64,000 nucleotides of DNA from a virus (IMGVR_UViG_3300035698_019240:1-64000), one strand, 5' to 3'; shown: positions 24,925 to 42,354, numbered from the stretch's first letter. Numbers and translations: made by a program. Notes: generated from the sequence alone by a model not told the origin.

Positions 24925-25413
24925 TCATATTATTTTCCTTTCTATTATTGCTACCGTATCATGTATTGCTCCACCGTGACTCAAGAGTAACACTTCCTCT
25001 TGTTCAAAACCACGGGTCTTACCCATACTCACGGAGTGGTAGCCAAAGGTTATTACTATACCATCTTTAACTAATAAATCACTAAGGTTATTTTTCACAG
25101 CATTGAATGTACTCATTGTACGGCCACCGTACATCTCCATACTCTTTCTATATGAGTATGGGGGATCAAGTAACACTGTTTCAAATACTACATTATCTTT
25201 AAACAATTCAACTAATTGTAGACCATCCTCATGGTAATCTGATGGCGACTCTGGATCACTATCATTTCTTATTTCATTAACCCCTTCTAACTCAGTAATA
25301 CCTGCAAACAGGTTTAATGTTAAACCTTCACAACGACTTTCAACCCATTCCCGTATCCTTCTATTTCTAAAAGTGTATTTATACAGTGGTGTCTTCATGT
25401 ATGTAAATTTCAT
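24925..25413 (-). CDS. Small SAM-dependent amino-methyltransferase (probable DNA adenine MTase)
   Basis: LNLFAG (motif I) and LLDPPY (motif IV). Confidence 0.7.
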   Translation of the reverse strand: MKFTYMKTPLYKYTFRNRRIREWVESRCEGLTLNLFAGITELEGVNEIRNDSDPESPSDYHEDGLQLVELFKDNVVFETVLLDPPYSYRKSMEMYGGRTMSTFNAVKNNLSDLLVKDGIVITFGYHSVSMGKTRGFEQEEVLLLSHGGAIHDTVAIIERKII

Positions 25414-25709
25414 ATCTCTATCTCCTTAAATAGTTCATCTACATCTATAATAGGTTTATCTTCTATCCAATTTTTATTACAAGCCCATGTATATCCTGAA
25501 ATTTTATCATATATCGCAAAATGATAAGTGGCACTATCATTATTATTGTAATATTTGTCTATAGTAAACTCTTTACCGAATATATGAAACATTTCACTGT
25601 CAATATAACTTTTATTTGCATGAAATCCTCCACATTTATCCTTTAGTATTTTAAATTCTTCTCTCATCTTATCCAGAGTTTTGAATTTTACCTTATCTCC
25701 TACTTTCAT
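25410..25709 (-). CDS. Tail-tagged small protein, family B
   Basis: GDKVKFKTL...MFHIFG; ends [13 protein letters not shown]. Confidence 0.8.
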   Translation of the reverse strand: MKVGDKVKFKTLDKMREEFKILKDKCGGFHANKSYIDSEMFHIFGKEFTIDKYYNNNDSATYHFAIYDKISGYTWACNKNWIEDKPIIDVDELFKEIEI

Positions 25710-25951
25710 ATATCTATATCCTCAAACAATTCATTAACATTCATAATAAGATCATCCACCATAAACAAATCATTAAATGAGTAATTGTTTTCTTGTCCAT
25801 TATCCCATTCTATACTTATCCAGTCCTTAAAACCTTCTGTGTGATTTTTTACTGTACCCACTACCTTTGATTTGCTATACCAAGGATTAGATGGACGATT
25901 AAAATATCGATCATCTATAAGTCCTACTCTGTCTCCTATCTTAAATTTCAT
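25706..25951 (-). CDS. Tail-tagged small protein, family A (SH3-like)
   Basis: IGDRV...IEWDNG..NNY; ends IMNVNELFEDIDI. Confidence 0.8.
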   Translation of the reverse strand: MKFKIGDRVGLIDDRYFNRPSNPWYSKSKVVGTVKNHTEGFKDWISIEWDNGQENNYSFNDLFMVDDLIMNVNELFEDIDI

Positions 25952-26172
25952 ATATCTATATCCTTAAATAGATCATCAACATCAAGTAACATTGAATCCT
26001 TACACTCTTTATAAGTATGTTCACCACCAAATAGTGAACTAGTATTTTCACAATTCCATTCACATGAACGATTTGTTTTAATATGAGGCACTTTATGAAA
26101 ACATCCCACTACTGTACAATAATCATATGCACTACATATAACTTTATTCTTATACATTATAACACTTTTCAC
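25948..26172 (-). CDS. Tail-tagged small protein, family C (Cys/His-rich)
   Basis: C..C.H..PH..C; ends LLDVDDLFKDIDI. Confidence 0.75.
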   Translation of the reverse strand: MKSVIMYKNKVICSAYDYCTVVGCFHKVPHIKTNRSCEWNCENTSSLFGGEHTYKECKDSMLLDVDDLFKDIDI

Positions 26173-26187
26173 GCATATTGTAAATTT

Positions 26188-26328
26188 TTATTTAATTCCC
26201 CATGTGACGAATTTTTCTGCCAATCTTTCTGCTAATTTCATATATTTTAATAAAATCAATGTCATAACTATTACCCATACAGGTGCCAAACATGTGTAAA
26301 ATATAATATTTTTAATTCCTTTTCTCAT
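26188..26328 (-). CDS. Small hydrophobic peptide (46 aa)
   Basis: Hand-translated; starts at the ATGA overlap with the upstream tagged gene. Confidence 0.5.
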   Translation of the reverse strand: MRKGIKNIIFYTCLAPVWVIVMTLILLKYMKLAERLAEKFVTWGIK

Positions 26329-26561
26329 ATATCTATCTCCTCAAATAGTTCATCTACATCAATAATAGGATCCTCATCTACTATAAATAATTGATGAGGT
26401 TCGTAATTGTTTTCTTGTCCATTATCCCATTCTACACTTACCCAATCCCATTTTGATAATAAAGTACCTATAATTCCAGTCTTACTATACCATGGATTAG
26501 CGGCTCTGTTAGTGTAAATATCATCATATAGACCTACCCTATCACCTACTTTAAATTTCAT
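26325..26561 (-). CDS. Tail-tagged small protein, family A
   Basis: Ends IIDVDELFEEIDI. Confidence 0.8.
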   Translation of the reverse strand: MKFKVGDRVGLYDDIYTNRAANPWYSKTGIIGTLLSKWDWVSVEWDNGQENNYEPHQLFIVDEDPIIDVDELFEEIDI

Positions 26562-26815
26562 ATATCAATCTCCGAAAATAACTCGTCCACATCCATGATG
26601 TTTTCAATTACTTCAAACAGTTCGCCTCTACTGTATCCGTTTTTAAGTCCGTTATCCCACATTACAGATGGATGCCAACCAGACCTTAATATAGTACCTA
26701 CAATTCCAGTCTCACTATACCATGGATTATGGTCATTATTTGCGTATAAACCTACTCTATCACCAACTTCCCATTTTCTATTATCTTTTTTTCTTATATC
26801 TTTTCCTTTTATCAT
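26558..26815 (-). CDS. Tail-tagged small protein, family A
   Basis: Ends IMDVDELFSEIDI. Confidence 0.8.
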   Translation of the reverse strand: MIKGKDIRKKDNRKWEVGDRVGLYANNDHNPWYSETGIVGTILRSGWHPSVMWDNGLKNGYSRGELFEVIENIMDVDELFSEIDI

Positions 26816-27027
26816 ATCTCTATATCCTCAAACAGTTCATCTACATCTATTATTATATTCACTTCTTCCTTACAAAATACAGCAATTTCCCACTTAAACC
26901 TGGCATGATAACATTCGTTACGCTTACACTCATCACCACTATTCATAGGTATATGAGGAGTTCTGTGAGAACATGTACGCCTATCACATTTATCACTATA
27001 TTCACATATAATTTTTTGTTCTATCAT
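26812..27027 (-). CDS. Tail-tagged small protein, family C
   Basis: Ends IIDVDELFEDIEI. Confidence 0.8.
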   Translation of the reverse strand: MIEQKIICEYSDKCDRRTCSHRTPHIPMNSGDECKRNECYHARFKWEIAVFCKEEVNIIIDVDELFEDIEI

Positions 27028-27212
27028 ATATCTATATCCTCAAACAACTCATCAACATCCATTAATTTTTCATCTAAAGGAACGCATTTATGATTAGTCT
27101 CTTGCATACAAATGGCTCCACATCGTAAAGATTTACAATGAGGCACCATGTGATTACACATATCACAATCTAATTTACATATGTTCGCTGATTCACATAT
27201 ATATAATGTCAT
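27024..27212 (-). CDS. Tail-tagged small protein, family C
   Basis: Ends LMDVDELFEDIDI. Confidence 0.8.
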   Translation of the reverse strand: MTLYICESANICKLDCDMCNHMVPHCKSLRCGAICMQETNHKCVPLDEKLMDVDELFEDIDI

Positions 27213-27514
27213 ATATCAATCTCCTTAAATAGGTCGTCTACATCCATTATGATTTCAATAAACGGTACAATCCAATCATACTTGAAACTCCAAAACCTCC
27301 TGTTTATTAGATCCCAGATTACAAAATCGTATTTAGAATACGGTTGTTTTACATACTGTATCGTCTGTTCCCAACCGAACATATGAAACATTTTCTTATT
27401 GATTAACCATCCACCAATAACAATACTTTCATCATCACGACAGTAACAATCATATTGTAGTTTTATATCTTCAAGAGTTTTTAACTTTATTATGTCATTT
27501 TTTACGTATGTCAT
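27209..27514 (-). CDS. Tail-tagged small protein, family B
   Basis: Ends IMDVDDLFKEIDI. Confidence 0.8.
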   Translation of the reverse strand: MTYVKNDIIKLKTLEDIKLQYDCYCRDDESIVIGGWLINKKMFHMFGWEQTIQYVKQPYSKYDFVIWDLINRRFWSFKYDWIVPFIEIIMDVDDLFKEIDI

Positions 27515-27858
27515 TACACATCATCCGTATCATATAACAGGTTAATAACTATATTTGCTATATCAATTTTATGCTCGTTAATTGTTTTTTTAATAATTGG
27601 CATATGGTAATTTTTCTCATTTTTTGATATATACAAGGCCAAATTGTGTGTCTTTACTCGTATATGGTCAGTAATCATCAAATCCTTTACCACTTGTCCA
27701 ACCGGCACACATTCTTCCTTAACCATTCCATCGAAGTCGTTTCCATCAATCTTGTTACTCTCTTTATCATTAAACCATGATTCAACTCTTGCCATTCGTT
27801 GTTCCATTTTCTTCATCCATCTTTGTGTTATATTATCTGTCTTTTTAAGTTTCATCAT
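27514..27858 (-). CDS. Hypothetical protein (untagged)
   Basis: AGGAG RBS; lies within the array. Confidence 0.6.
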   Translation of the reverse strand: MMKLKKTDNITQRWMKKMEQRMARVESWFNDKESNKIDGNDFDGMVKEECVPVGQVVKDLMITDHIRVKTHNLALYISKNEKNYHMPIIKKTINEHKIDIANIVINLLYDTDDV

Positions 27859-27870
27859 AATTTCTCTCCT

Positions 27871-28167
27871 TTATATGTCTATACCCTCAAACAACTCATC
27901 AACATCAATGATAGTTTTATCTTCTATCCATTCTTTACAAAAACTCCATCCGAAATCATAATCATTTTCATATATCTCAAAGTCATAACCATCATAATTA
28001 TCATCATCATATACTCTATATATGATATTTGTATTTCCGAAAATGTGAAACATTTTCTTATTGATAAAATATCCGTTAACATGAATTCCGCTAAGGCCTT
28101 CGTCCCAAGGAAAAATTTCCTTTATCTTATCCAAACTCATTAGTTTTATCTTATCTCCTGCTTTCAT
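27871..28167 (-). CDS. Tail-tagged small protein, family B
   Basis: Ends IIDVDELFEGIDI. Confidence 0.8.
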   Translation of the reverse strand: MKAGDKIKLMSLDKIKEIFPWDEGLSGIHVNGYFINKKMFHIFGNTNIIYRVYDDDNYDGYDFEIYENDYDFGWSFCKEWIEDKTIIDVDELFEGIDI

Positions 28168-28388
28168 ATCTCTATATCCTCAAACAATTCATCAACATCC
28201 ATTATTGAGTCTTCTTTAGGTTTACAACCATCAAATTTTCGGTCTTCACCACCTATAGTTACAGTACAATCTATTGCACAATCATTTGTATATTTATGTT
28301 TACCTCTATGACTGCAATGCATCAATGGACAATTCCCTTCTATCCAACCATCACATTCCACAATTTCATGATATTCAATATCTCTCAT
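28164..28388 (-). CDS. Tail-tagged small protein, family C
   Basis: Ends IMDVDELFEDIEI. Confidence 0.8.
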   Translation of the reverse strand: MRDIEYHEIVECDGWIEGNCPLMHCSHRGKHKYTNDCAIDCTVTIGGEDRKFDGCKPKEDSIMDVDELFEDIEI

Positions 28389-28690
28389 ATGTCTATCTCC
28401 GAGAATAAGTCGTCTACATCCATTATGATTTCCTTATCTATCCACTTTTCACTAAATGCCCAAATACCCTCAGGACCTATTATATCAAAATCATAACCTC
28501 TCCCATTATTATTTTTCAATAAGTTGTTGATTCTCCATGACTTCCCGAACATATCAAGCATAAAACCATTAATGTGTAGATTCCCAACATTAAAATTTCT
28601 ACTATTAAGTATCTCTTTCAAACTGTATTGTAATTTTATTTGTCTAAGAGTTTTCAGTTTTATCTTATCTCCTACTTTCATATCTTTCAT
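28385..28690 (-). CDS. Tail-tagged small protein, family B
   Basis: Ends IMDVDDLFSEIDI. Confidence 0.8.
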   Translation of the reverse strand: MKDMKVGDKIKLKTLRQIKLQYSLKEILNSRNFNVGNLHINGFMLDMFGKSWRINNLLKNNNGRGYDFDIIGPEGIWAFSEKWIDKEIIMDVDDLFSEIDI

Positions 28691-28899
28691 ATCTCTATAT
28701 CCTCAAACAGTTTATCTACATCAATGATAGGACCATCATCTATTACTATCAATTCTGACTCAGTGTATATAACCGTATTTGGTTGATAATCCCATCTAAC
28801 ATGTATAGGATAATGCAACTCATAGTCAACTATCTTAACAGTTCCATGCCTCTTAAGGAGACCACTTTTTAACTTTACTCTATCATCGACTTTTATCAT
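28687..28899 (-). CDS. Tail-tagged small protein, family A
   Basis: Ends IIDVDKLFEDIEI. Confidence 0.8.
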   Translation of the reverse strand: MIKVDDRVKLKSGLLKRHGTVKIVDYELHYPIHVRWDYQPNTVIYTESELIVIDDGPIIDVDKLFEDIEI

Positions 28900-29312
28900 T
28901 ATTCAATAGCCATGAGTACTTTTTTTACCAGGCTTCCATCTACTGTTCCTTTCAATTCTTTCATTATTGGTCCCATTGCTTTCATCTTATTATGAAATTT
29001 ACTCAAGTCTACATTGGTCTTGATATACTCTTTTATGTCATCCTCGGATAGCAAATTTTCTTCCGGCAAGTATCCTTCAACTATATCAAGATATGTAGAA
29101 GTTTTATATTTCTTAGCATCAAGTACCATCTTTTCGTTTTTCCTTAGACCTTTCAGGATGTATACCAATTCGGCATCTGTTACTACTTCACCTACCTTTT
29201 TGTTCAACCGTGGTACCTCACCAAGTATGACCCGTATAGCACTACTCCTCAATGGCGTCTCGGCCTTCATACTTTCTTTTAAGTCTTTTCGTAATCTTTC
29301 ATATATAGTCAT
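28899..29312 (-). CDS. GatB/YqeY domain protein
   Basis: DLKESMKA...IRVIL.E...YLP..LSEDDI...MG.IMKELKG.VDG..VKK. Confidence 0.8.
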   Translation of the reverse strand: MTIYERLRKDLKESMKAETPLRSSAIRVILGEVPRLNKKVGEVVTDAELVYILKGLRKNEKMVLDAKKYKTSTYLDIVEGYLPEENLLSEDDIKEYIKTNVDLSKFHNKMKAMGPIMKELKGTVDGSLVKKVLMAIE

Positions 29313-29497
29313 TTACTAACTCCTTTCTTATTACAGTTTAATTGTTATAATTTCACGATCCTCATCACTAGGTACCTCATGTTCAGCACACCATTCGTTG
29401 AACATACCTGTTGTTATATCAAATCCATCCTCCCAGTCTGTTACCTTTTTACAAACAGTACAGTATTTTCTAAGTTGTTCATCATTGAAGTCCATAG

Positions 29498-29905
29498 TTA
29501 TATCCTTTCTACAAAAAATGGTAAACAGAAATTGAATGTATGTTTACAGTCGGCACACATTACATTTATTGACATTCCCCCTCTTGGTCCTCCACATATG
29601 TACTCACAACCACAATCAGGACAACACCTTTCTAATAGTATCCTTTTGAGTAGAGTGTCACTATCCATTTCAATTTTATCACATAAGGAGTCACATTCTT
29701 TCTCGCAGGGTTTACATGGGTATTTTACCTCAAGTATATCACCTCTAAGGGCTTCAGGAACTCTAACAAATCCCATCGACTTCCATCTTGGGTCTCCTGG
29801 CTGTATATCTTCATTAACCTTTTCTTTATTTTTAAGTATTGCTTCGACAAATACAAACACAAAAAATAATATCAAACCTATCAAACCTATTGTTGTCCAT
29901 TCCAT
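29498..29905 (-). CDS. Membrane-anchored Cys-rich protein, paralog of 32499
   Basis: N-terminal hydrophobic segment; YPCK.C...CCPDCG...C.DC.H.F. Confidence 0.7.
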   Translation of the reverse strand: MEWTTIGLIGLILFFVFVFVEAILKNKEKVNEDIQPGDPRWKSMGFVRVPEALRGDILEVKYPCKPCEKECDSLCDKIEMDSDTLLKRILLERCCPDCGCEYICGGPRGGMSINVMCADCKHTFNFCLPFFVERI

Positions 29906-29909
29906 TCCA

Positions 29910-30047
29910 TTACTCTCCTTTATTCAATTTATTCTTAGCACGTTCATAGTTGTTCGTCCTATTAAGTAGTTCAGTATACTTATCCTTTTCTATACTATTG
30001 TAAAGTCCTAAAGCAATCAATATTAATACCATTAAAATATATTCCAT
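29910..30047 (-). CDS. Small membrane-anchored peptide (45 aa)
   Basis: Hand-translated MEYILMVLILIALG...RTNNYERAK. Confidence 0.55.
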   Translation of the reverse strand: MEYILMVLILIALGLYNSIEKDKYTELLNRTNNYERAKNKLNKGE

Positions 30048-30053
30048 TATCAG

Positions 30054-30245
30054 TTACTCCTTTATTATATATTGTCTTTCACATTGATAACATTTCAAAC
30101 CTTCAGGCAGTGTAACACCACAACTGGGACAATCAATATCATTTTCACTAATGAAGTGATCATTTTTCCTCAGGTTTTCAAGTCGTGTGATACCACCTAT
30201 GCAATACTTTATCGTATCTAATATGTCTATCAAAAATCGTTTCAT
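30054..30245 (-). CDS. Small zinc-ribbon protein
   Basis: CPSC...CYQC. Confidence 0.55.
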   Translation of the reverse strand: MKRFLIDILDTIKYCIGGITRLENLRKNDHFISENDIDCPSCGVTLPEGLKCYQCERQYIIKE

Positions 30246-30246
30246 A

Positions 30247-30540
30247 TTATACCCTCGTATGACATTTATGTTCCCTACGTGCTTTGAAACTTCCCCTTAA
30301 TTCCTCAACCAAAGACTCACACTCTTTACAAATGTATATTTCTATACCCTCTTCCTTCTTATCATACCATACAAATCGACTCTCTACCAGTTCACATTCC
30401 AATCGTTCCAGTTCACGTTCATAATTTTTGACTCGGTGCATTTGAGTCTTTGACATCTGTTTCCTTTCTAAGATAATAATACCTTTAGAAATAAATACAC
30501 CCAGTAAACAAAACACTATTGCAATTAAAATTATTTCCAT
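30247..30540 (-). CDS. Membrane-anchored small protein with CxxC
   Basis: MEIILIAIVF...RVKNYER...CKEC. Confidence 0.65.
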   Translation of the reverse strand: MEIILIAIVFCLLGVFISKGIIILERKQMSKTQMHRVKNYERELERLECELVESRFVWYDKKEEGIEIYICKECESLVEELRGSFKARREHKCHTRV

Positions 30541-30845
30541 TTTGTATCCTCATCTTCATCCTCTTCTCCATTATATTTTGCACATTCATGAATACTTCGT
30601 TGATACATGCTACCTATTTCCTCCTCAACCACTGTGCCACATACCAAACACATGTATCGGTAATTACCCTTTTCATCTGTCCTAACAAAATGGAACATAT
30701 TCTTTAACCGTTCACGTTCCAGCCGTGCCTTTATAGCTTCATAACTATCGGTTCGGGAATACAGTATCTTTCTCCACCTTTTTCTCTCCTTTTCGCTATA
30801 AACTATAATACATAAACATACAATTACAAACAATATCCATTCCAT
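30531..30845 (-). CDS. Membrane-anchored small protein with CxxC
   Basis: MEWILFVIV...RTDSYE...CLVC. Confidence 0.65.
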   Translation of the reverse strand: MEWILFVIVCLCIIVYSEKERKRWRKILYSRTDSYEAIKARLERERLKNMFHFVRTDEKGNYRYMCLVCGTVVEEEIGSMYQRSIHECAKYNGEEDEDEDTKWK

Positions 30846-31061
30846 TATATTATCTCCTTTATCATTTAAGTCCTAACCGTAATACTATCCACCATACGAT
30901 GAAAAATATTACAAAATATATCCATTCACTCATTGTCTATTCCCTTTATATTAGGTACATCACTCCTATCTTGATGGCTCCTATTAGCCACATGATTATC
31001 TTCACTACGCCTATTAGCCACGGGGCTATCAGGCATATAATACAACCAGGTACATCCAGTT

Positions 31062-31316
31062 TTAATTTTTCTTCTGAAGGTTTTTTCCTTCATCCTCAAC
31101 AGCCTTACTTTTGTATATTGGATGTCTCTGTCCACATGAAAGGCACATATATGTGTCCTTTTCAACGGCCTTACCCTTCTCTATCATACGAATTTTTAAT
31201 ATCATATCATACAATTCCTTATACTCTCTTACATGTTCTCCCTTATGACTTCTATTATGATATATATCCTTCACCCATAGAAATACTAACACGATTACCA
31301 ATACCATATACTCCAT
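31062..31316 (-). CDS. Membrane-anchored small protein with CxxC
   Basis: MEYMVLVIV...YMCLSCG. Confidence 0.6.
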   Translation of the reverse strand: MEYMVLVIVLVFLWVKDIYHNRSHKGEHVREYKELYDMILKIRMIEKGKAVEKDTYMCLSCGQRHPIYKSKAVEDEGKNLQKKN

Positions 31317-31588
31317 TATATCACATCCTTTATATACTTATCCGGCTCGTCAAACGCCCACTCTGGTATGGTTATATTGTTGACCAATGTCCAAGCGTCA
31401 TCCAGTCTAACACCACTCTTGTATAAATCAATGTGCCCTATCCATTTTTCATTCAACACAAACTGGTCTGAATCAATCTTATACTTTTTACAGTAATACT
31501 TAACTATTATTTCGGCCGCCTTATTCATTTCCCATAAGGCATCTTTCCCTTTCCCTTGTGCTACCAGTAAATCTGTCACTAATCCCAT
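31316..31588 (-). CDS. Hypothetical protein
   Basis: RBS; within operon. Confidence 0.6.
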   Translation of the reverse strand: MGLVTDLLVAQGKGKDALWEMNKAAEIIVKYYCKKYKIDSDQFVLNEKWIGHIDLYKSGVRLDDAWTLVNNITIPEWAFDEPDKYIKDVI

Positions 31589-31590
31589 TT

Positions 31591-32498: not shown

Positions 32499-32906
32499 CT
32501 ACAGGCTCATCTTACTACACTTTAATCCTAAGAACATCCTCTCCACACGTGTAGGTTGTTCAAATCTGAAGCCATTAATATGAAAATAATGGCCGCAATC
32601 CTCACATTTCACATCTATTGTCCCTGGTCCACGACGCATCACAGGAACGAACAATGACCCACAATCCGGACAGCACATGTGATTTGTTATCTTTTCCCTC
32701 AAGACATATTCATCCCTCTCCAGCAAGGAGCATAACTTTTCACACCCTGAATTGTACATAAGACAACTCTTACATGGATATAACAAATCCTCCTTCATTT
32801 TCCGTTCATCCTTACATATATCCACCTTCAACTTTCTTATCATCCTCAACTTCTGAATGATCATCACTATCAATATCATTATTAAACTTATCGTAATTAA
32901 TTCCAT
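32499..32906 (-). CDS. Membrane-anchored Cys-rich protein, paralog of 29498
   Basis: Same Cys pattern as 29498. Confidence 0.7.
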   Translation of the reverse strand: MELITISLIMILIVMIIQKLRMIRKLKVDICKDERKMKEDLLYPCKSCLMYNSGCEKLCSLLERDEYVLREKITNHMCCPDCGSLFVPVMRRGPGTIDVKCEDCGHYFHINGFRFEQPTRVERMFLGLKCSKMSL

Positions 32907-33064
32907 ATCTCTATCTCCTTAAATAGTTCATCCACATCCATTATTGGTACTTCTTTAGGTATAAACATATCAAAAACAAAATCAGGAGTAGTCTTACATT
33001 CCTTACAGGGAGACAATCTCCAATTACGTCCTGAATAATAACATGTTGTACAATTCCTTTCCAT
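32897..33064 (-). CDS. Tail-tagged small Cys protein (55 aa, not in ORF track)
   Basis: Hand-translated MERNCTTC...[16 protein letters not shown]. Confidence 0.75.
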   Translation of the reverse strand: MERNCTTCYYSGRNWRLSPCKECKTTPDFVFDMFIPKEVPIMDVDELFKEIEIWN

Positions 33065-34907: not shown

Positions 34908-34930
34908 TTTCCTTTCACTTTTACACTATA

Positions 34931-34959
34931 AGGATAACACATTTTTTACCCATTGTAAA
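34931..34959 (-). promoter_or_regulatory. Early promoter, leftward
   Basis: TTTACA-N17-TATCCT with TG extension. Confidence 0.65.
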
Positions 34960-36029: not shown

Positions 36030-36058
36030 TTTACATTTTATCAAAAATAATGTATAAT
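36030..36058 (+). promoter_or_regulatory. Early promoter, rightward
   Basis: (G)TTTACA-N17-TATAAT. Confidence 0.75.
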
Positions 36059-36082
36059 AGGTATATGAAATAAAGGAATAAA

Positions 36083-36820
36083 GTGCAAATGAAATATAGT
36101 GGGAAAAAATCTAAACCATTTACTTTCTTACATAGTGGTGTCAAGCTTTTAAAAAACACACCTGCAAAAATAAGAGAAAGTAAAAATAAAAGTACTAAGA
36201 ATAGGTGCTATGGAGAAAATCATCCTGGATGGAAAGGTGGTTATAGTATAAAAGGTATACCAACATATGATACTTACGCTCCTAAACTCTTTGCGGATGA
36301 GTGTTCCCGTGACCCGGAGGATGGTAATATCTTGAATGTGAAATGTTACTATAGTGGTTGTAAAGAATGTTTTAGGCCAAGTATAGGACAAGTCAGTGCA
36401 CGACTAACTGTTATAAAAATAGGAAATGATGGTAGAAATTTCTACTGCTCGGAAGAGTGTAAAAAATCTTGTTCTGTGTATCACATGAGAGTTGAATGGA
36501 TTATGAACCAGAATGATGGTAGAAATTTTTCAGATAATGAGGATAGATGGTATAGAGACACCCAACCAGAATTACGGGCCATGTGCTTGGAAAGAGATGG
36601 TTATATTTGTCAAACATGTGGAAAGCATGAGAGTGATCTTGATGTTTCATTACACTGTCATCATAGAGAAGGTGTATTTTGGGAACCATTGATGTCTGCT
36701 GATTTAGATATGGTTTTGACCGAGTGTGAAACATGTCATTATGATATACATAGAAAAGAAGGATGTAGGTCAGTGGATATGCAATGTCCATTTCTTGGAG
36801 CAGAAGGAGCGGATATATAG
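36083..36820 (+). CDS. HNH endonuclease
   Basis: ERDGYICQTCG...HCHH...CETCH. Confidence 0.85.
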   Translation: MQMKYSGKKSKPFTFLHSGVKLLKNTPAKIRESKNKSTKNRCYGENHPGWKGGYSIKGIPTYDTYAPKLFADECSRDPEDGNILNVKCYYSGCKECFRPSIGQVSARLTVIKIGNDGRNFYCSEECKKSCSVYHMRVEWIMNQNDGRNFSDNEDRWYRDTQPELRAMCLERDGYICQTCGKHESDLDVSLHCHHREGVFWEPLMSADLDMVLTECETCHYDIHRKEGCRSVDMQCPFLGAEGADI

Positions 36821-36894: not shown

Positions 36895-37107
36895 ATGAAA
36901 AAAATAACAGTATGGAATCGGTTAGGAGAAAATGGTTGGAATCACAATCATATTGAGGACGGATGGGTTGAAGGATCTAAACCAAAGGCGAAAAAAGCTG
37001 AATTCAAAAGGCAGATTAGTGGTTGGAAAAATAATTTGTGGAGAAAGTCATATGAGTATTTGACTGTTGATAATAAAGTAATATGGTGGAATGGTGAAAA
37101 TAAATGA
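36895..37107 (+). CDS. Hypothetical Trp-rich protein
   Basis: 70-aa ORF overlapping the next gene by ATGA. Confidence 0.55.
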   Translation: MKKITVWNRLGENGWNHNHIEDGWVEGSKPKAKKAEFKRQISGWKNNLWRKSYEYLTVDNKVIWWNGENK

Positions 37108-37373
37108 AGAGAAAGATCATGAAAAAAGGAAGCATTATAGTATTAAAAACTTTGGAAGAATTAAAGAAGGGAAAAACATGTGTTGCTGATAGAGGTGGTA
37201 TTTCAATAGATGGAAAATATATACGTCCGGATATGTACAACATGTTTGGGAAAAAGCATGTGATAGAAGACATATATTATGTATGGAATGGTAGTATTAT
37301 TGAAATAAAACATGAACGAAGTAATTGGTATATAAGAGAAGAATGGATTGAAAAGGTATTGAAAGGAAAATAG
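37104..37373 (+). CDS. Family B small protein lacking the C-terminal tag
   Basis: LKTLEEL...MYNMFGK...EEWIE. Confidence 0.65.
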   Translation: MKRKIMKKGSIIVLKTLEELKKGKTCVADRGGISIDGKYIRPDMYNMFGKKHVIEDIYYVWNGSIIEIKHERSNWYIREEWIEKVLKGK

Positions 37374-37551: not shown

Positions 37552-37803
37552 ATGAGTGCCATTCAAATAGGAGATAGAGTAATATTAACAACTGATAGGT
37601 ACGATAGTAGTGCTATGAATCCTCGTTATGATAAAACAGGAATTAAAGGAAATGTAACGAGGATAGTATATATGGACAGAAAAACAAGGATATATGTTAA
37701 ATGGGATACTGGAAGGAATAATGGATATGATGTGTCGGACTTAGAAGTTGCTGATAACATCATCATTGATGTGGATGACCTGTTCTCGGAGATTGATATA
37801 TGA
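37552..37803 (+). CDS. Tail-tagged small protein, family A
   Basis: Ends IIDVDDLFSEIDI. Confidence 0.8.
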   Translation: MSAIQIGDRVILTTDRYDSSAMNPRYDKTGIKGNVTRIVYMDRKTRIYVKWDTGRNNGYDVSDLEVADNIIIDVDDLFSEIDI

Positions 37804-38027
37804 TAGTTGGAGATACAGTAAGGTTAACGACCGACAGGTATGGTAATTGTGATGTAAATCCTTGTTATGATAAAACAGGAGTTGAAGGAGAAGTAACTGA
37901 TATAGAAGAAGGTACTATATATGTTAAATGGGATAATGGAAGGAATAATGTATATGTTAAGTCGGACTTAGGAGTTATTCTTCCTATTATAGATGTGGAC
38001 GACCTGTTCTCGGAGATTGAGATATGA
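37800..38027 (+). CDS. Tail-tagged small protein, family A
   Basis: Ends IIDVDDLFSEIEI. Confidence 0.8.
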   Translation: MIVGDTVRLTTDRYGNCDVNPCYDKTGVEGEVTDIEEGTIYVKWDNGRNNVYVKSDLGVILPIIDVDDLFSEIEI

Positions 38028-38266
38028 AGTTTAAAGTTGGAGATAGAGTAAAACTAATAACAAAAAGACATGGTGTAGGTTATTCTAATCCTTATTGGCC
38101 AAAATATGGAATAGAAGGTGTTATAACGGAAACATGGCAGGACATAACTTTTTATGTCAAATGGGATAATACGGGGAAAAATAGTTATAGTTCTAATGAT
38201 TTGGAATTAGTAGATGTTAAACCTCTTATAGATGTGGATGAACTGTTTGAAGGGATAGAGATATGA
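38024..38266 (+). CDS. Tail-tagged small protein, family A
   Basis: Ends LIDVDELFEGIEI. Confidence 0.8.
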   Translation: MKFKVGDRVKLITKRHGVGYSNPYWPKYGIEGVITETWQDITFYVKWDNTGKNSYSSNDLELVDVKPLIDVDELFEGIEI

Positions 38267-38508
38267 AAGTCGGAGATAGAGTAAGGTTAACAAAGGATCG
38301 TTTTACATTGTGTGAGGAAAATCCAAAATGGCCTGAGTATGATGTTCTTGGTGTTATTGCTTATATCGGAAATTCAAATATGGAAATGAATATAAGGGTA
38401 GATTGGGATAATGGACATAATAATATTTATGATAACTTTGATTTAAGAATTATAGAAGATAAACCTATTATAGATGTAGATGAACTATTTAAGGAGATAG
38501 AGATATGA
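38263..38508 (+). CDS. Tail-tagged small protein, family A
   Basis: Ends [13 protein letters not shown]. Confidence 0.8.
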   Translation: MKVGDRVRLTKDRFTLCEENPKWPEYDVLGVIAYIGNSNMEMNIRVDWDNGHNNIYDNFDLRIIEDKPIIDVDELFKEIEI

Positions 38509-39617
38509 TAGTTGGAATTTTAAAAGAGATTATGGATAGTGAAAATCGTGTTTCAATGACTCCGGCAGGAGTCGAGGTAATTAAAAAGAATGGTCATACT
38601 GTTCTAATAGAAAAGGATGCCGGTAAAAAAAGTGGTTTTGAAAACAGTGAATATGTTAAGGCAGGAGGCAACATTGTATTAAAACCTGATGATATCTATA
38701 AATGCGCTGATATGGTAATGCATGTTAAAGAACCTCTACCTGTTGAATATGGATATTTCAGAAAAGATCAGATTATCTTTACATTTTTACACTTGGCTGC
38801 AAAAAAAGAACTCACTAATACCCTTATAAGAAAACGTTCTGTTGCTATTGCATATGAAACCATTCAAAAAAAGGATGGCTCTTTACCATTGCTTATACCC
38901 ATGAGTGAGGTGGCTGGAAGGATGTCTATTCAGGCGGGAGCGAAGTGTCTTGAAATGACCTATGGTGGTCAGGGCATACTACTCGGTGGAGTTCCCGGTG
39001 TACAGCCCGGCATGGTTGTAATTTTAGGCGGTGGTGTAGCCGGTGTAAATGCGGCGAAGATAGCATCAGGTTTTGGTGCAAGGGTTTACCTATTGGATAT
39101 TAATCAGGAACGCCTACGATATTTGAGTGATGTTATGCCGAAAAATTGTTTTCCTATAATGTCAAGTCCTTCAAAAATTCGTGAGTTATTAAAGGAAGCC
39201 GATCTTGTTGTAGGTGCTGTTCTAATACCAGGAGCCAAGGCCCCTAAACTTGTAACAAGAGAAATATTAAAGACCATGAAAAAAGGTTCCGTTATAGTTG
39301 ATATTGCTATAGACCAGGGAGGGTGTTTTGAAACATCCAAACCCACTACACATTCAAACCCGACTTACATTGTAGACGGTGTTATTCATTATTGTGTTGC
39401 AAATATGCCCGGAGCTGTGGCAAAAACTTCAACCCTTGCCCTTACTAATGTTACATTACCTTATGCTGTTGATATAGCAAATAAGGGATGGGAAAAAGCG
39501 GCCAGGGAAAATCCTGAAATCATGATGGGATTGAATGTGGTAAAAGGAAAGGTAACATGTAAAGGTGTGGCAGATGCTTTTAAACTTGAATATGCTCCTA
39601 TTGAAAGTTGGGGATAG
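38505..39617 (+). CDS. ald: Alanine dehydrogenase
   Basis: 370 aa; KEI...[33 protein letters not shown] and VANMPGAV motifs. Confidence 0.95.
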
Positions 39618-39795
39618 AGTATATAACCAGAATCATGAGGGAATCGTTGTACGGATTGATTATAATTTACGTCATCCAATATATGTTGAATGGGATGGTT
39701 CTTGTTTTCATTATTGCTACTATGCTAACGAATTGGGATTGTTGATTGAAAACATCATAGATGTTGATGAGTTGTTTGAGGATATAGAGATATGA
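39601..39795 (+). CDS. Tail-tagged small protein, family A (probable TTG start overlapping the ald end)
   Basis: TTG AAA GTT GGG GAT AGA GTA = MKVGDRV; ends IIDVDELFEDIEI. Confidence 0.75.
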   Translation: MKVGDRVYNQNHEGIVVRIDYNLRHPIYVEWDGSCFHYCYYANELGLLIENIIDVDELFEDIEI

Positions 39796-40064
39796 ATGCA
39801 ATAACTGTTGAAATATTGATGAGTATATTTGGGGTTCTTACTTCTTTTCAAATAATACCTCAATGTGTTAGGATACATCGTAGAAGAAAAAGTGACGATC
39901 TTAGCCTTTGGACTATGTATATTAGTATAATACAACAGGTTTTATGGTTAGGATATGCTATTTGGAAACCTGTTATATGTCTAGTTGTAACAGAAGGTGT
40001 TTGGTTAACACTTTTAATAGTCTTGTTATGTTTTATATTTAAATATAGAGGAAAAAGAGATTGA
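39792..40064 (+). CDS. PQ-loop / SemiSWEET-like 3-TM protein
   Basis: IIPQ...RRKSDDLS...WLGYA. Confidence 0.75.
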   Translation: MNAITVEILMSIFGVLTSFQIIPQCVRIHRRRKSDDLSLWTMYISIIQQVLWLGYAIWKPVICLVVTEGVWLTLLIVLLCFIFKYRGKRD

Positions 40065-40067
40065 TAT

Positions 40068-40340
40068 ATGAGTACATTTATTGTTGAACTATTTATGACT
40101 ATATTAGGCACAATTGGTGCTTGTCAAATAATACCTCAATGTGTTAGGATACATCGTAGAGAAAAAAGTGATGATATTAGCTTTTGGACTATTGGTATTA
40201 ATATAATGTCCCAGTCAGTGTGGTTAGTGTATTCCTTTTGGAAATTTGTACCATGTATGATTATATCCGGTTCCGTTTGGTTAACACTTTTACTGATAAT
40301 GTTAGGATTGGTAGTGAAGCATAGAGGGGAAAATAAATGA
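40068..40340 (+). CDS. PQ-loop / SemiSWEET-like 3-TM protein (paralog)
   Basis: IIPQ...REKSDDIS...WLVY. Confidence 0.75.
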   Translation: MSTFIVELFMTILGTIGACQIIPQCVRIHRREKSDDISFWTIGINIMSQSVWLVYSFWKFVPCMIISGSVWLTLLLIMLGLVVKHRGENK

Positions 40341-40585
40341 AAAAATGGAAAGTAGGAGATAGGGTAGTACTGAATAACAACATTTATGGTGATAGTCCTA
40401 GTAACCCTTTTATAGACCAAACAGAAGGTACAATTAGAGAGGTTGATGATCCTTCTTTTTATGGTCAAAATATAGTAGTGGACTGGTTGAATGGTAGTCA
40501 TAATTGTTATTATTCTAGTGATTTAAAGGAAGTTGAAGAAAATATAATAGATGTTGATGAACTATTTTCGGAGATAGATATATGA
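40337..40585 (+). CDS. Tail-tagged small protein, family A
   Basis: Ends IIDVDELFSEIDI. Confidence 0.8.
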   Translation: MKKWKVGDRVVLNNNIYGDSPSNPFIDQTEGTIREVDDPSFYGQNIVVDWLNGSHNCYYSSDLKEVEENIIDVDELFSEIDI

Positions 40586-40797
40586 AGTTAAAAATTGGAA
40601 ACAGAGTGGCATGGTATGGAGATCAAAGTTTTACTCGTAAAGGAACAGTAAAGAATATATCAAATATTTCCAAGTTTCCTTATTTAATACTATGGGATGA
40701 TGGAAGTCGTGGATGGTACAGTGAATCATTTATAGTATTAATGGATGATGATAAAATTATGGATGTTGAAGAATTATTTAAGGAGATTGAGATATGA
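40582..40797 (+). CDS. Tail-tagged small protein, family A
   Basis: Ends [13 protein letters not shown]. Confidence 0.8.
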   Translation: MKLKIGNRVAWYGDQSFTRKGTVKNISNISKFPYLILWDDGSRGWYSESFIVLMDDDKIMDVEELFKEIEI

Positions 40798-41045
40798 AGT
40801 TAAAAATTGGAGATGAGGTAAAATTAATAACCAAAAAGCATGGTATTAGTAATAATAATCCTTACTGGCCCGATTATAAAAAAATAGGAACTATTGATCG
40901 TATACATAATACAGGGGGTCTGAATATTAGAGTTGTGTGGGAATTAGGAGGTATGTGTCATAATGTTTATAGTAGTTCAGATTTAGAATTGGTAGATGAA
41001 CCTATTATGGATGTTGAAGAATTATTTGGAGATATAGATATATAA
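40794..41045 (+). CDS. Tail-tagged small protein, family A
   Basis: Ends IMDVEELFGDIDI. Confidence 0.8.
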   Translation: MKLKIGDEVKLITKKHGISNNNPYWPDYKKIGTIDRIHNTGGLNIRVVWELGGMCHNVYSSSDLELVDEPIMDVEELFGDIDI

Positions 41046-41278
41046 TGCGGAAAGTAGGAGATAGAGTAAAATTAACAAGTATAGTTCACGGTATATCTGA
41101 TAGTAATCCATATTTTCTAAAATACAAAATCTTGGGAACCGTTTATAAAGTTTTAGGTTTAGAATGGACTTGTCCATTTAAAGTTAAATGGGATAATGGT
41201 ATAAAGAATGGATATAATTCATGGGATCTAGAAGACTCGGAATATATTATTGGTCTTGATGAGTTGTTTGAATTATGA
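41045..41278 (+). CDS. Family A small protein with degenerate tag
   Basis: Ends IIGLDELFEL. Confidence 0.75.
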   Translation: MRKVGDRVKLTSIVHGISDSNPYFLKYKILGTVYKVLGLEWTCPFKVKWDNGIKNGYNSWDLEDSEYIIGLDELFEL

Positions 41279-41448
41279 TGATTTGTCCCATGGCTGATAA
41301 ATGTATATGTTATACATGTACTCATAGAATACCTCATAAACACTGTGACGGTCTATCATGTTTAAGACATGTTGATAATAAATGGCCTCATGTTTGTATA
41401 CCACTTATCATTGATATAGATGATTTATTTTCTGATGTTGAAGTATAA
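41275..41448 (+). CDS. Family C small protein with divergent tag (57 aa, not in ORF track)
   Basis: Hand-translated MMICPMADKC...CTHRIPH...IIDIDDLFSDVEV*. Confidence 0.75.
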   Translation: MMICPMADKCICYTCTHRIPHKHCDGLSCLRHVDNKWPHVCIPLIIDIDDLFSDVEV

Positions 41449-41472
41449 ACCATATTTGAAATAAATGCTTTA

Positions 41473-41501
41473 TTTACATTTTGTTTATTTTATGTTAAAC
41501 T
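41473..41501 (+). promoter_or_regulatory. Early promoter
   Basis: TTTACA-N17-TAAACT with TG extension. Confidence 0.6.
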
Positions 41502-41527
41502 AGATATAGAATTTAAAGGAGAATATA

Positions 41528-41740
41528 ATGGGTGAAAAGTTATTAGATAATGGAGATCAATATTTACCAGAGCAGTATATTAAATACTGTGACAATTTAC
41601 AGGAAGACAGTGAGGTCACATGGGACGATTTTTTTGATCATGTTAATCTTTCAAGTGATAAGAGGTCAGACTTTCTTATAGCTGCTATATATAAACAAGC
41701 ACTGGAGACATTAAGTGTGGAAGTAGACTATCAAATATAA
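41528..41740 (+). CDS. Hypothetical protein
   Basis: AGGAG RBS. Confidence 0.6.
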   Translation: MGEKLLDNGDQYLPEQYIKYCDNLQEDSEVTWDDFFDHVNLSSDKRSDFLIAAIYKQALETLSVEVDYQI

Positions 41741-41976
41741 TGAGAAAAGGATTAAATATAAATTGTATTCATTTTAAAGGTCCTTCAAGTTGTCCACGAA
41801 AACCTAAAAGACTTGGATTTTTAATGGCTAAATGTCATTTGGCTAACGATCTTACAAAAACTTGTGCTATTCAGGAAAAATACCCAAGACCATCCCATCC
41901 ACCTCCACCTCCACCACCAAAGAGAGTTATCAGTGAAGATGTAGGTTGGAAATATATAAAGAGAAGGAAAGGATAA
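41740..41976 (+). CDS. Hypothetical Cys/Pro-rich protein
   Basis: Within operon. Confidence 0.55.
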   Translation: MRKGLNINCIHFKGPSSCPRKPKRLGFLMAKCHLANDLTKTCAIQEKYPRPSHPPPPPPPKRVISEDVGWKYIKRRKG

Positions 41977-42147
41977 ATGTGGATAGATGATAAAAGTGAT
42001 GGCTGTGTTTACGATACGGTAGACTGTGACCATAATTGTCTTGGATGTAACCATGGCTCTATGCAATGTACATCATGTGGACTTATTGTATATTATCCCG
42101 ATAATAAATGTGACTGTGGTCATGTTTTGGAAGACAGAGATTTCTAA

Positions 42148-42354
42148 ATGGAAGATTATGTAATATGTGATGCGTATGTAATTTGTGATTGGCATGGTAA
42201 ATGTCATCATAAAAAACCTCATATTAAAGATTCTATGTGTGATATCAATGGATGTAATTGTGTAGATGGAAATGTTAGTTGTTCTCCTGTAAACACTGTT
42301 GATATATTGGATAAAAATGAAGTGGATGAATGGTTCAGAGAAATAGAATTGTAA
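42148..42354 (+). CDS. Family C small protein with degenerate tag
   Basis: C..CHHKKPH; ends EVDEWFREIEL. Confidence 0.7.
   Translation: MEDYVICDAYVICDWHGKCHHKKPHIKDSMCDINGCNCVDGNVSCSPVNTVDILDKNEVDEWFREIEL

What the first reader, a model, noticed from the sequence alone, without database searches (positions are those of the whole stretch)
25410..42354. Tagged-cassette system: ~24 small genes from unrelated families share one C-terminal peptide, (I/M)DVDELFxxI(D/E)I-stop
Seen: 13 minus-strand ORFs (12 in 25410-28899 plus 32897-33064) and 8 plus-strand ORFs (37552-41045) end in this motif, and 3 more (41045, 41275, 42148) carry degenerate copies. Their bodies fall into at least three unrelated families: A, SH3/Mib-Herc2-like KVGDRV...VxWDNG..N.Y; B, GDKIKLKTL...MFHxFG; C, Cys/His-rich. 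Untagged members of B and C exist (37104, 43344), so the tail is a separable module. Variation is mostly synonymous (V as GTA/GTT/GTG, L as CTA/TTA/CTG/TTG) or conservative (IIDIDDLFSDVEV at 41275, which has no overlapping downstream gene), pointing to selection on the peptide. Inference: a library of early effectors all addressed to one partner by a shared acidic amphipathic tag, such as a docking hub, a clamp or RNA polymerase, or a protease acting on it as a degron. I do not recognise this as a described system.
Basis: partly seen in the sequence, partly recalled or inferred. Interest (0 to 1): 0.95.

Follow-up and report, generated by a model that had tools for sequence, protein, structure and literature searches.

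The report
Shared C-terminal docking tag on phage proteins
An uncultured T4-like phage from salt lakes ends 24 small, fast-evolving proteins with the same 12-residue acidic tail; selection keeps the tail as a peptide, so it looks like an address label read by one partner that I could not identify.

Summary
Twenty-two ORFs in 25.4-41.5 kb end in (I/M)DVDELFxxI(D/E)I, and two more carry weaker copies. All copies are in frame at C-termini, and there are none elsewhere in the 92-kb contig.

Codon analysis shows two layers:
- Codons 1-7 (IDVDELF) are conserved as peptide. Synonymous sites are saturated (pS 0.71, pN 0.09); the bodies give 0.63 and 0.45.
- Codons 8-12 also encode the Shine-Dalgarno site and the ATGA restart of the next gene, and pS falls to 0.31.

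The bodies are two kinds of SH3-like barrel and a Cys-rich family. In the models the tail is a flexible appendage.

The tag is a long form of a clade-wide motif, [DE][DE]LFx[LIV]-COOH. I found this motif independently in relatives: 11 to 13 copies in a 98%-complete genome, 2 or 3 in three others, and none in about 1 Mb of control fragments. About 17 other metagenomic protein clusters carry the long form. This scan reported a ..DLFEV tag on other T4-like DNA before (e1-5337514). I found no publication.

Best reading: a short linear docking motif read by one shared partner. The partner is unidentified. The tag resembles the gp32 acidic tips of this clade more than its polymerase clamp-binding tails, but neither match is significant.

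The parts
25410..25709 (-). Tagged ORF, 99 aa, family B (SH3-like barrel with helices), tail [12 protein letters not shown]
25706..25951 (-). Tagged ORF, 81 aa, family A (SH3-like), tail MNVNELFEDIDI
25948..26172 (-). Tagged ORF, 69-74 aa, family C (Cys/His-rich), tail LDVDDLFKDIDI
26325..26561 (-). Tagged ORF, 78 aa, family A
26558..26815 (-). Tagged ORF, 85 aa, family A
26812..27027 (-). Tagged ORF, 71 aa, family C
27024..27212 (-). Tagged ORF, 62 aa, family C
27209..27514 (-). Tagged ORF, 101 aa, family B
27871..28167 (-). Tagged ORF, 98 aa, family B. It ends TAA, and the next gene has its own SD site 13 nt downstream, so there is no ATGA overlap.
28164..28388 (-). Tagged ORF, 74 aa, family C
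28385..28690 (-). Tagged ORF, 101 aa, family B
28687..28899 (-). Tagged ORF, 70 aa, divergent family A, tail IDVDKLFEDIEI
32897..33064 (-). Tagged ORF, 55 aa, Cys-rich. The tail is followed by WN because the next start is ATGG, which removes the stop.
37552..37803 (+). Tagged ORF, 83 aa, family A
37800..38027 (+). Tagged ORF, 75 aa, family A
38024..38266 (+). Tagged ORF, 80 aa, family A
38263..38508 (+). Tagged ORF, 81 aa, family A. Its tail and linker DNA is 97% identical over 62 nt to that of the family B gene at 25410.
39565..39795 (+). Tagged ORF, about 73-76 aa, family A. Its 5' end overlaps the 3' end of the alanine dehydrogenase gene.
40337..40585 (+). Tagged ORF, 82 aa, family A
40582..40797 (+). 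Tagged ORF, 71 aa, family A, tail [12 protein letters not shown]
40794..41045 (+). Tagged ORF, 83 aa, family A. It ends TAATG.
41045..41278 (+). Family A ORF, 77 aa, ending LDELFEL. This is the short form of the tag that relatives carry.
41275..41448 (+). Family C ORF, 57 aa, tail IDIDDLFSDVEV. It has no downstream overlapping gene and no SD core in the 'xx' codons (TCT GAT).
42148..42354 (+). Family C ORF, 68 aa, weak tail EVDEWFREIEL
37104..37373 (+). Untagged paralogue of family B (28% identity)
43344..43529 (+). Untagged Cys-rich protein, a weak relative of family C (22% identity)
36030..36058 (+). Sigma70-like promoter candidate (TTTACA-17-TATAAT) at the head of the right arm. This is a consensus match only.

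Best explanation
The tail is a C-terminal short linear docking motif. It hangs by a flexible, often Pro-containing linker from small, fast-evolving binding domains (two kinds of SH3-like barrel and a Cys-rich, probably zinc-binding module). Each protein is a variable head plus a constant handle, and the handle brings all of them to one reader protein.

Shown:
- The handle IDVDELF is under strong purifying selection as peptide, although its synonymous sites are saturated.
- It is modular across body families and across phages.
- It is predicted to be disordered with a short helix.
- Its core, acidic-acidic-L-F near the carboxyl end, is shared with relatives whose major capsid protein is only about 60% identical.

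Also shown: the last five codons (xxI[DE]I) double as the Shine-Dalgarno site, spacer and ATGA restart for the next gene. One junction therefore provides both the handle and translational coupling. At least one recombination event between tails of different families is visible.

Inferred:
- A single reader exists.
- The genes are early.
That means either the partners of the gp32 acidic tip or the gp45 clamp. A host protein, such as a protease adaptor, is the alternative.
For: Count and position:
- 22 strict and 2 weak copies, all in frame at C-termini and none elsewhere.

Selection:
- Codon positions 1 and 2 carry about 2 bits and position 3 about 0.3-0.5 bits across I-D-V-D-E-L. L uses four codons.
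- Nei-Gojobori proportions: tail codons 1-7 pS 0.71, pN 0.089; family A bodies pS 0.63, pN 0.45; tail codons 8-12 pS 0.31.
- The peptide is kept where there is no downstream overlapping gene (41275-41448 and 27871-28167 here). It is also kept in 6 of the 11 tails of relative G001 that end TAA or TAG.

Structure:
- AlphaFold2 gives an SH3-like barrel at pLDDT about 90. The tail is at about 55, with a 4-6 residue helix that is not packed on the body, in both family A and family B.

Distribution:
- An unbiased search for recurrent C-termini in relative G001 (98% complete) recovered [DE][DE]LFx[LIV]-stop on 11-13 small ORFs of several body types.
- The DNA pattern gives 11 hits in G001, 3 in G008, 2 in G002 and 2 in G003. 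The reversed-pattern control gives 0, and 30 other fragments (about 1 Mb) give 0.
- A PSSM built from the tails of this window ranks G001's short-tail proteins in 12 of the top 16 places among 556 ORFs.
- A profile search of 1.84 billion proteins found about 17 further clusters with the long form and about 10 with the short form, from JGI, ENA and Logan data.

Precedent:
- T4 gp43, gp55 and gp33 end in ..SLDFLFG..SLDFLYEAND and ..TLDFLL. These tails are read by one pocket of gp45 (PMC7892883, PMC3012046).
- The acidic C-terminal domain of gp32 binds several replisome proteins (PMC3012046).
Against: - No reader was identified and no binding was tested.
- In the clade the polymerase clamp-binding tails (QAFNFFFGG, QAFNAFFG, GLNLFFGE) do not resemble the tag. 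They rank 340-458 of 556 under the tag PSSM. In T4, by contrast, all clamp clients share one motif.
- The gp32 tips of the clade, (T/S)DxxLLxELxx(L/M) in 12 loci, are closer but rank only 37-79 of 556.
- Part of the conservation (codons 8-12) is at DNA level.
- A shared tail would also be expected for a degron or a sorting signal, and sequence alone cannot separate these.
Confidence: 0.5

Rival explanations
1. The tag is a degron or timer. A host or phage protease or adaptor recognises it, so that all these (probably early) effectors are removed together once they have done their job.
For: - The position is at the extreme C-terminus, with a hydrophobic last residue (I, L or V) in both the long and short forms.
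- The tail is flexible.
- Relative G001 encodes a ClpP-like protein, judged from its sequence as read and not tested with a profile.
- The arrays lack late promoters.
Against: - Known bacterial C-terminal degrons are non-polar or basic at the end (ssrA-type LAA, MuA-type). This rests on my own knowledge. The tag has an acidic residue at position -2 and six acidic residues in twelve.
- Such strict conservation of seven residues is more than most degrons need.
- No protease or adaptor could be linked to the tag.
Confidence: 0.15
2. The conservation is only a by-product of a standard gene junction. The DNA supplies the SD site, spacer and ATGA restart, and a homology patch for cassette recombination. 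The encoded peptide has no function of its own.
For: - The 'xx' codons are AAGGAG, GAGGAG, TCGGAG or GAGGAT, and 18 of 22 tails end ATATGA.
- pS drops to 0.31 in codons 8-12.
- A 62-nt copy at 97% identity joins a family B gene and a family A gene.
- Assemblies of four salt-lake runs have loose ends at junctions 25951 and 38030. This is weak evidence, because repeats break assemblies.
Against: - Codons 1-7 vary almost only synonymously (pS 0.71, pN 0.089). RNA- or DNA-level selection cannot produce that.
- The peptide is kept without an SD core and without a downstream gene at 41275-41448.
- It is also kept on TAA/TAG-terminated genes of G001.
- This is a real second layer of the system, not a sufficient explanation.
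Confidence: 0.05
3. The tail acts in cis as a nascent peptide in the ribosome exit tunnel. It slows termination so that the ribosome restarts efficiently at the overlapping ATG.
For: - The conserved peptide lies immediately before a stop that overlaps the next start in 18 of 22 cases.
- Acidic nascent stretches are known to affect ribosomes (my own knowledge).
Against: - The distance of the invariant LF from the stop differs between forms: 5 residues in the long form and 2 in the short form, and both forms occur in this phage.
- The tail is kept on genes with no coupled downstream gene.
Confidence: 0.05
4. The tail is a self-association or sorting element. It bundles the small proteins into hetero-oligomers, or targets them into the virion for injection, as the N-terminal capsid-targeting sequence of T4 internal proteins does.
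For: - The pattern is amphipathic (hydrophobic at tail positions 1, 3, 6, 7, 10 and 12).
- The logic of the T4 internal-protein cassettes is analogous: unrelated bodies with one shared tag (my own knowledge).
- The bodies diverge fast, as expected for anti-defence cargo.
Against: - The net charge of about -6 argues against self-bundling.
- There is no T4-type late promoter on the coding strand inside the arrays.
Confidence: 0.1

Closest known systems
T4-family sliding-clamp-binding motifs at the C-termini of gp43, gp55 and gp33, read by gp45
   Same: - It is a short peptide at or within a few residues of the C-terminus.
- It sits on a flexible linker on otherwise unrelated proteins.
- All copies are read by one pocket.
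- The long form's V-D-E-L-F fits the loose pattern hydrophobic-[DN]-x-hydrophobic-F seen in T4 (LDFLF) and in the polymerases of this clade (FNFFF, FNAFF, LNLFF).
   Different: - T4 has three clients; here there are 24 small proteins of unknown function.
- The tag is strongly acidic, while the polymerase tails of the clade are aromatic and uncharged and score poorly under the tag PSSM.
- In the short form the spacing from the upstream hydrophobic residue to LF is one residue longer.
- Clamp binding is not shown.
Acidic C-terminal tips of single-stranded-DNA-binding proteins (T4 gp32 A-domain, T7 gp2.5, bacterial SSB-Ct)
   Same: - It is an acidic run with embedded hydrophobic residues at the extreme C-terminus, acting as a protein-recruitment handle.
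- The gp32 tips of this clade, (T/S)DxxLLxELxx(L/M), and T4's ..DLDDLLNDL share [DE]-[DE]-L-[LF]-x-[DE]-[LI] with the long form DELFxEI.
   Different: - There, one protein carries the tip and many partners read it. Here, many proteins carry it.
- The resemblance is not statistically strong (rank 37-79 of 556).
- The gp32 of this phage itself is not on the contig.
T4 internal-protein cassettes with a shared capsid-targeting sequence
   Same: Unrelated, fast-evolving small proteins in a hyperplastic locus carry one short shared tag that addresses them to one destination.
   Different: That tag is N-terminal, is cleaved by the prohead protease and is expressed late. This one is C-terminal, and its arrays lack late promoters.
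Earlier findings of this scan: ..DLFEV tag on 23 small proteins of a giant T4-like phage (e1-5337514) and a similar tagged microprotein set (e1-5782019)
   Same: - The core ([DE][DE]LFx[LIV]-COOH) and the kind of carrier are the same.
- Dual use as the SD site and start of the next gene is also noted there.
   Different: - Those are on other DNA.
- This window carries a 12-residue extended form, with the short form surviving on one gene (41045-41278).
- Those notes are AI reports, not publications.

Membership tests
T4-type sliding-clamp-binding motif (SCBM) | Located at or near the extreme C-terminus on a flexible linker | tested here: met
   All 24 copies are C-terminal. Tail pLDDT is about 55, against about 90 for the body.
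T4-type sliding-clamp-binding motif (SCBM) | Same motif as on the cognate DNA polymerase C-terminus. In T4, gp43, gp55 and gp33 all carry LDFL[FLY]. | tested here: not met
   - The cognate polymerase is not on this contig.
- In relatives that carry the short tag, the polymerase ends QAFNFFFGG (G001) or QAFNAFFG (G003).
- The G001 polymerase tail ranks 340-458 of 556 under the tag PSSM.
T4-type sliding-clamp-binding motif (SCBM) | Binds the hydrophobic pocket of the gp45-type clamp | not testable with these tools
SSB/gp32-type acidic C-terminal tip | Acidic run with hydrophobic residues at the extreme C-terminus | tested here: met
   Six acidic and six hydrophobic residues in twelve.
SSB/gp32-type acidic C-terminal tip | Carried by the ssDNA-binding protein | tested here: not met
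   The carriers are SH3-like barrels and Cys-rich microproteins. There is no gp32 on the contig.
SSB/gp32-type acidic C-terminal tip | Sequence likeness to the gp32 tip of the clade | tested here: inconclusive
   [DE][DE]L[LF]x[DE][LI] is shared with 12 gp32 tips, but the PSSM rank is only 37-79 of 556.
T4 capsid-targeting sequence cassettes | N-terminal leader, cleaved after (L/I)xE, late expression | tested here: not met
   The tag is C-terminal. There is no TATAAATA on the coding strand inside the arrays.
Pfam MIB_HERC2 (family A) and SH3DP (family B) | Score above Pfam's gathering cut-off | tested here: not met
   - MIB_HERC2 scores 15.9 bits against a cut-off of 33.5. SH3DP scores 14.3 against 25.
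- At fold level both families are SH3-like barrels. Hits include YorP, NusG/Spt5 KOW, PsaE, and phage DUF4314-type domains.
C-terminal degrons (ssrA-like or ClpX C-motifs) | Non-polar LAA-like or basic C-terminal tripeptide | tested here: not met
   The tails end I-[DE]-I or F-x-[LIV]. Recognition by another protease is not excluded.

The most novel reading that the evidence does not exclude
A clade of T4-like phages runs an addressed effector library. Dozens of hypervariable small binding domains (SH3-like barrels and zinc modules) each carry a copy of a handle that imitates the acidic C-terminal tip of the phage's own gp32. All of them are therefore recruited to, or compete at, the replisome proteins that read that tip. 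The handle's DNA doubles as a plug-in junction (SD site plus ATGA) that lets new heads be swapped in by recombination.
Probability: 0.15. Interest if true: 0.85.

Novelty: new variant of a known kind. Interest (0 to 1): 0.7.

Why it matters
If one reader binds this tag, then about a tenth of the genes on this contig form a single functional system, and so do similar gene sets in related uncultured T4-like phages. These are genes that annotation currently leaves blank.

The arrangement would be a natural head-plus-handle design, like clamp toolbelts or adaptor libraries, evolving under arms-race pressure.

The tag is short, portable and easy to test with peptide pull-down or a GFP fusion. It therefore gives direct experimental access to the function of phage 'dark matter' microproteins.

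The dual coding (peptide handle plus translation restart) is also a clear example of how phage hyperplastic regions can accept new genes without losing expression.

Tried and rejected
- Complex prediction with the G001 clamp (3 copies, alignment A4) and a G001 short-tail protein (A5): no verdict, score 0.02 against a mark of 0.32. This is neither for nor against binding.
The contexts of P0002 and the other metagenomic tag-bearers could not be fetched.
- Long-form DNA pattern in viral contigs: 0 hits.
- Long-form DNA pattern in metagenome contigs: 61 single hits. All are out of frame or internal, so they are chance.
- Long-form DNA pattern in genome contigs (185,579 species): 8 hits. All are internal to unrelated genes and none is C-terminal. 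I found no host protein or prophage with the long tag.
- The search for homologous proteins with a family C protein: no candidates.
- tblastn of a family A protein against 50,697 cultured phage records: one weak hit, with no tag.
- No gp45, PolB or gp32 on the contig. The contig is 47% complete.
- The gp32-tip pattern [DE][DE]L[LF]x[DE][LIF]-stop matches only gp32 in T4, and nothing in G000, G001, G002 or G004.
- tblastn of the genes in the hyperplastic region against G001 and pieces of other relatives found only family A in common. No neighbouring reader candidate emerged.
- Recurrent-tail scans of G004, G005 and G007 gave only a 3-copy ..EIE[KR]IL[DE][IL] set in G004. That is too few for a co-variation test.
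- No RNA holder is listed among public runs.
- Joints in laid contigs have sides of about 20-23 letters, which is too short to trust.
- Literature search for DVDELF: 0 papers. Search for SH3DP: nothing relevant.
- Resemblances to the FtsZ C-terminal peptide, the HslU C-terminus, bacterial QL[SD]LF and PDZ ligands were considered from memory only. I did not pursue them, because none fits both the long and the short form.

Full report
WHAT IS THERE

The window is the first 64 kb of a 92,055-bp linear IMG/VR contig that CheckV rates 47% complete. It belongs to a distant T4-like myovirus. PHROG profiles find a tail sheath, large terminase, gp23-type major head protein and portal. The head protein is 37% identical to that of Pelagibacter phage HTVC008M and 58-67% identical to about 80 uncultured IMG/VR contigs. 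Near-identical DNA occurs in at least six salt-lake metagenome runs from six studies.

A six-frame scan of the whole contig found 22 strict matches to the tail pattern. All are in frame and all lie at an ORF end. Thirteen are on the minus strand (25410-28899 and 32897-33064) and nine on the plus strand (37552-41448). Two weaker copies lie at 41045-41278 and 42148-42354. There are no matches out of frame, in spacers, or outside 25.4-42.4 kb.

The two arrays diverge from a central stretch at about 33-36 kb. That stretch holds three HNH-type endonuclease genes and an ORF-free region of about 1 kb. GC skew flips sign at about 36 kb.

PEPTIDE OR DNA?

I aligned the 22 tails with their flanks. Across I/M-D-V-D-E-L-F, codon positions 1 and 2 carry 1.7-2.0 bits. 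Position 3 carries 0.3-0.5 bits wherever synonymous change is possible. Leucine is written CTA, CTG, TTA and TTG.

Nei-Gojobori proportions:

| Region | pS | pN |
|---|---|---|
| Tail codons 1-7 | 0.71 | 0.089 |
| Family A bodies | 0.63 | 0.45 |
| Tail codons 8-12 | 0.31 | 0.205 |

Synonymous sites in the tail are therefore as saturated as in the bodies. The copies are old, not homogenised, and the first seven residues are held by selection on the protein.

Codons 8-12 behave differently. The 'xx' codons read AAGGAG, GAGGAG, TCGGAG or GAGGAT, which is a Shine-Dalgarno core. ATA TGA then gives an ATGA overlap with the next start in 18 of 22 cases. The tail at 41275-41448 has no downstream gene. 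It keeps the peptide (IDIDDLFSDVEV) but loses the SD core (TCT GAT).

One pair of tails, on a family B gene at 25410 and a family A gene at 38263, is 97% identical over 62 nt. Recombination between tails does happen, but it is the exception.

THE CARRIERS

Family A has 13 members at 33-65% identity. It gives a confident AlphaFold2 SH3-like barrel with pLDDT about 90 over residues 1-64. Residues 65-81 sit at pLDDT about 55, with a four-residue helix over ELFE. Foldseek hits are YorP, NusG/Spt5 KOW, HERC2/CPH, and many phage DUF4314-type domains.

Family B has 4 tagged members and 1 untagged. It is also an SH3-like barrel, with inserted helices, and again the tail has low confidence.

Family C is Cys/His-rich.

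Pfam matches to MIB_HERC2 and SH3DP fall below the cut-offs.

The heads are thus small binding-type domains and the tail is a flexible appendage, often preceded by Pro. That is the usual anatomy of a short linear motif.

THE TAG IS A LONG FORM OF A CLADE-WIDE MOTIF

I clustered the last residues of all ORFs without a prior pattern. In this contig the method recovers the 22 tails. In relative G001 (235.8 kb, 98% complete, head protein about 61% identical) it recovers small ORFs ending [DE][DE]LFx[LIV]-stop.

The corresponding DNA pattern gives these counts:

| Genome or set | Hits |
|---|---|
| G001 | 11 |
| G008 | 3 |
| G002 | 2 |
| G003 | 2 |
| Reversed-pattern controls | 0 |
| 30 other fragments (about 1 Mb) | 0 |

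The carriers in relatives include family A-like barrels, Cys-rich proteins and at least two further body types. Leucine codons vary there too, and 6 of G001's 11 tails end TAA or TAG without an overlapping start. The peptide therefore does not depend on coupling.

The 'degenerate' copy at 41045-41278 in this window (LDELFEL) is exactly this short form. A PSSM built from the tails of this window ranks G001's short-tail proteins in 12 of the top 16 places among 556 ORFs.

A profile of family A searched against 1.84 billion proteins found 1,136 relatives. Among the best 150, about 17 clusters that are not from this window carry the long form, with endings such as ..IEL..IDV and ..IEV. About 10 carry the short form. 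They come from short JGI, ENA and Logan contigs, and one 1.5-kb contig holds four of them. Other homologues end in different acidic-hydrophobic endings (..LLSDI..VLDDI..INETLTI).

This scan had already reported a ..DLFEV tag in another giant T4-like phage (e1-5337514, e1-5782019). My result on relatives of this window is independent of those notes and agrees with them.

WHO READS IT?

This is not settled. The contig lacks the replication module: there is no PolB, gp45 or gp32. I therefore compared the tag with the two classes of C-terminal handles known in T4.

T4's clamp clients end ..SLDFLFG (gp43)..SLDFLYEAND (gp55) and ..TLDFLL (gp33). They bind one pocket of gp45 (PMC7892883, PMC3012046). 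The long form's V-D-E-L-F fits the loose pattern hydrophobic-[DN]-x-hydrophobic-F. However, the polymerases of this clade end QAFNFFFGG, QAFNAFFG and GLNLFFGE. These tails are uncharged and aromatic, and the G001 polymerase tail ranks 340-458 of 556 under the tag PSSM. In T4 all clamp clients share one motif, so this mismatch counts against the clamp pocket.

T4 gp32 ends ..DLDDLLNDL. Twelve gp32 genes of this clade end (T/S)DxxLLxELxx(L/M). That shares [DE][DE]-L-[LF]-x-[DE]-[LI] with DELFxEI. The gp32 tip ranks 37-79 of 556, which is closer than the polymerase tail but not significant. The gp32 A-domain is known to recruit gp59, gp61 and RNase H (PMC3012046), and Dda through a helix at residues 248-270 (PMC11551737).

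A host reader, including a protease adaptor, remains possible. I found no bacterial or archaeal genome with a C-terminal long tag.

TIMING

T4-type late promoters (TATAAATA) lie on the coding strand upstream of several structural genes, but none lies on the coding strand inside the arrays. The best sigma70-like matches (TTTACA-17-TATAAT) sit at the heads of the arms and in intergenic gaps. 'Early' is plausible but inferred.

VERDICT

The most likely mechanism is a C-terminal docking handle that brings a diversifying set of small binding domains to one reader (confidence about 0.5). A built-in translational-coupling junction makes the arrays easy to extend.

Rivals:
- A degron or timer: 0.15.
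- A sorting or self-association signal: 0.1.
- A cis-acting nascent peptide: 0.05.
- A pure DNA junction: 0.05. This one is contradicted as the sole cause.

Shared C-terminal tails read by one hub are known in principle (T4 clamp clients, T7 and SSB acidic tails). A 24-member, multi-fold, clade-wide tagged microprotein set has not, to my knowledge and by my searches, been described in print.

Noticed in passing
L187-L200, L170, L171, L160:571-1536 (gp32 genes of related IMG/VR phages); T4 L169:1449-2354: The extreme C-terminus of gp32 is itself a conserved motif across this clade and T4: (T/S)DxxLLx(E/D)Lxx(L/M)-COOH in 12 loci, and ..DLDDLLNDL in T4. The structural paper I read left residues 281-301 out of its initial binding screen. 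When it later tested peptide 271-301, binding to Dda was much weaker. This tip may be an uncharacterised docking element.
   Followed up: partly
window 29331-33202, minus strand: Between the tagged genes lies a run of small proteins with an N-terminal membrane helix that begin ME(W/Y/L)I... Two 135-aa paralogues (29498-29905 and 32499-32906) pair that helix with a Cys-rich CPDCG module. This looks like a second family set sharing an N-terminal feature.
   Followed up: no
window 39792-40064 and 40068-40340 (+): Tandem pair of 90-aa PQ-loop / SemiSWEET-like membrane proteins (Pfam PQ-loop, E about 1e-6; 73% nucleotide identity) inside the right array.
   Followed up: partly
window 38505-39617 (+): A full alanine dehydrogenase gene (AlaDh_PNT_C, E 1e-87) sits inside the array. 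It starts at a tail's ATGA, and its 3' end overlaps the next family A gene. Its DNA is 67% identical to sequences filed as Staphylococcus and Listeria phage records.
   Followed up: partly
window 33203-34907 (-), 36083-36820 (+), 34928-36082: Three HNH / NUMOD3-type endonuclease-like genes flank an ORF-free stretch of about 1 kb with higher GC (0.40) at the point where transcription diverges. A 65-nt inverted repeat at 98% identity (34479-34543 and 36297-36361) links two of the genes. Rfam and tRNA scans found nothing there.
   Followed up: partly
window 28899-29312 (-) and 42410-43342 (+): A YqeY-like protein (Pfam E 6e-13) and a NIF3/DUF34-like protein (E 8e-7) border the arrays. These are auxiliary genes of unknown role in a phage.
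   Followed up: no
P0009 (clamp homologue, 57% identical to the G001 clamp): NCBI files a clamp of this phage clade under a Candidatus Izimaplasma MAG (125-kb contig). This could be a mis-binned phage contig or a hint at the host. Strong SD sites and about 32% GC would fit a low-GC Bacillota-type host.
   Followed up: no
window 25951, 38030, 38053, 42414: Contigs from four salt-lake runs have loose ends at these points, running on into other sequence. Positions 25951 and 38030 are tail/gene junctions. This may mean that cassette order varies in the population, or only that the repeats break the assemblies.
   Followed up: partly
G004 8954-9292, 9428-9670, 26918-27109 (L201, L202): A relative without the DELF tag has three small ORFs ending ..EIE(K/R)IL(D/E)(I/L). 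This may be another dialect of the same kind of tail.
   Followed up: no
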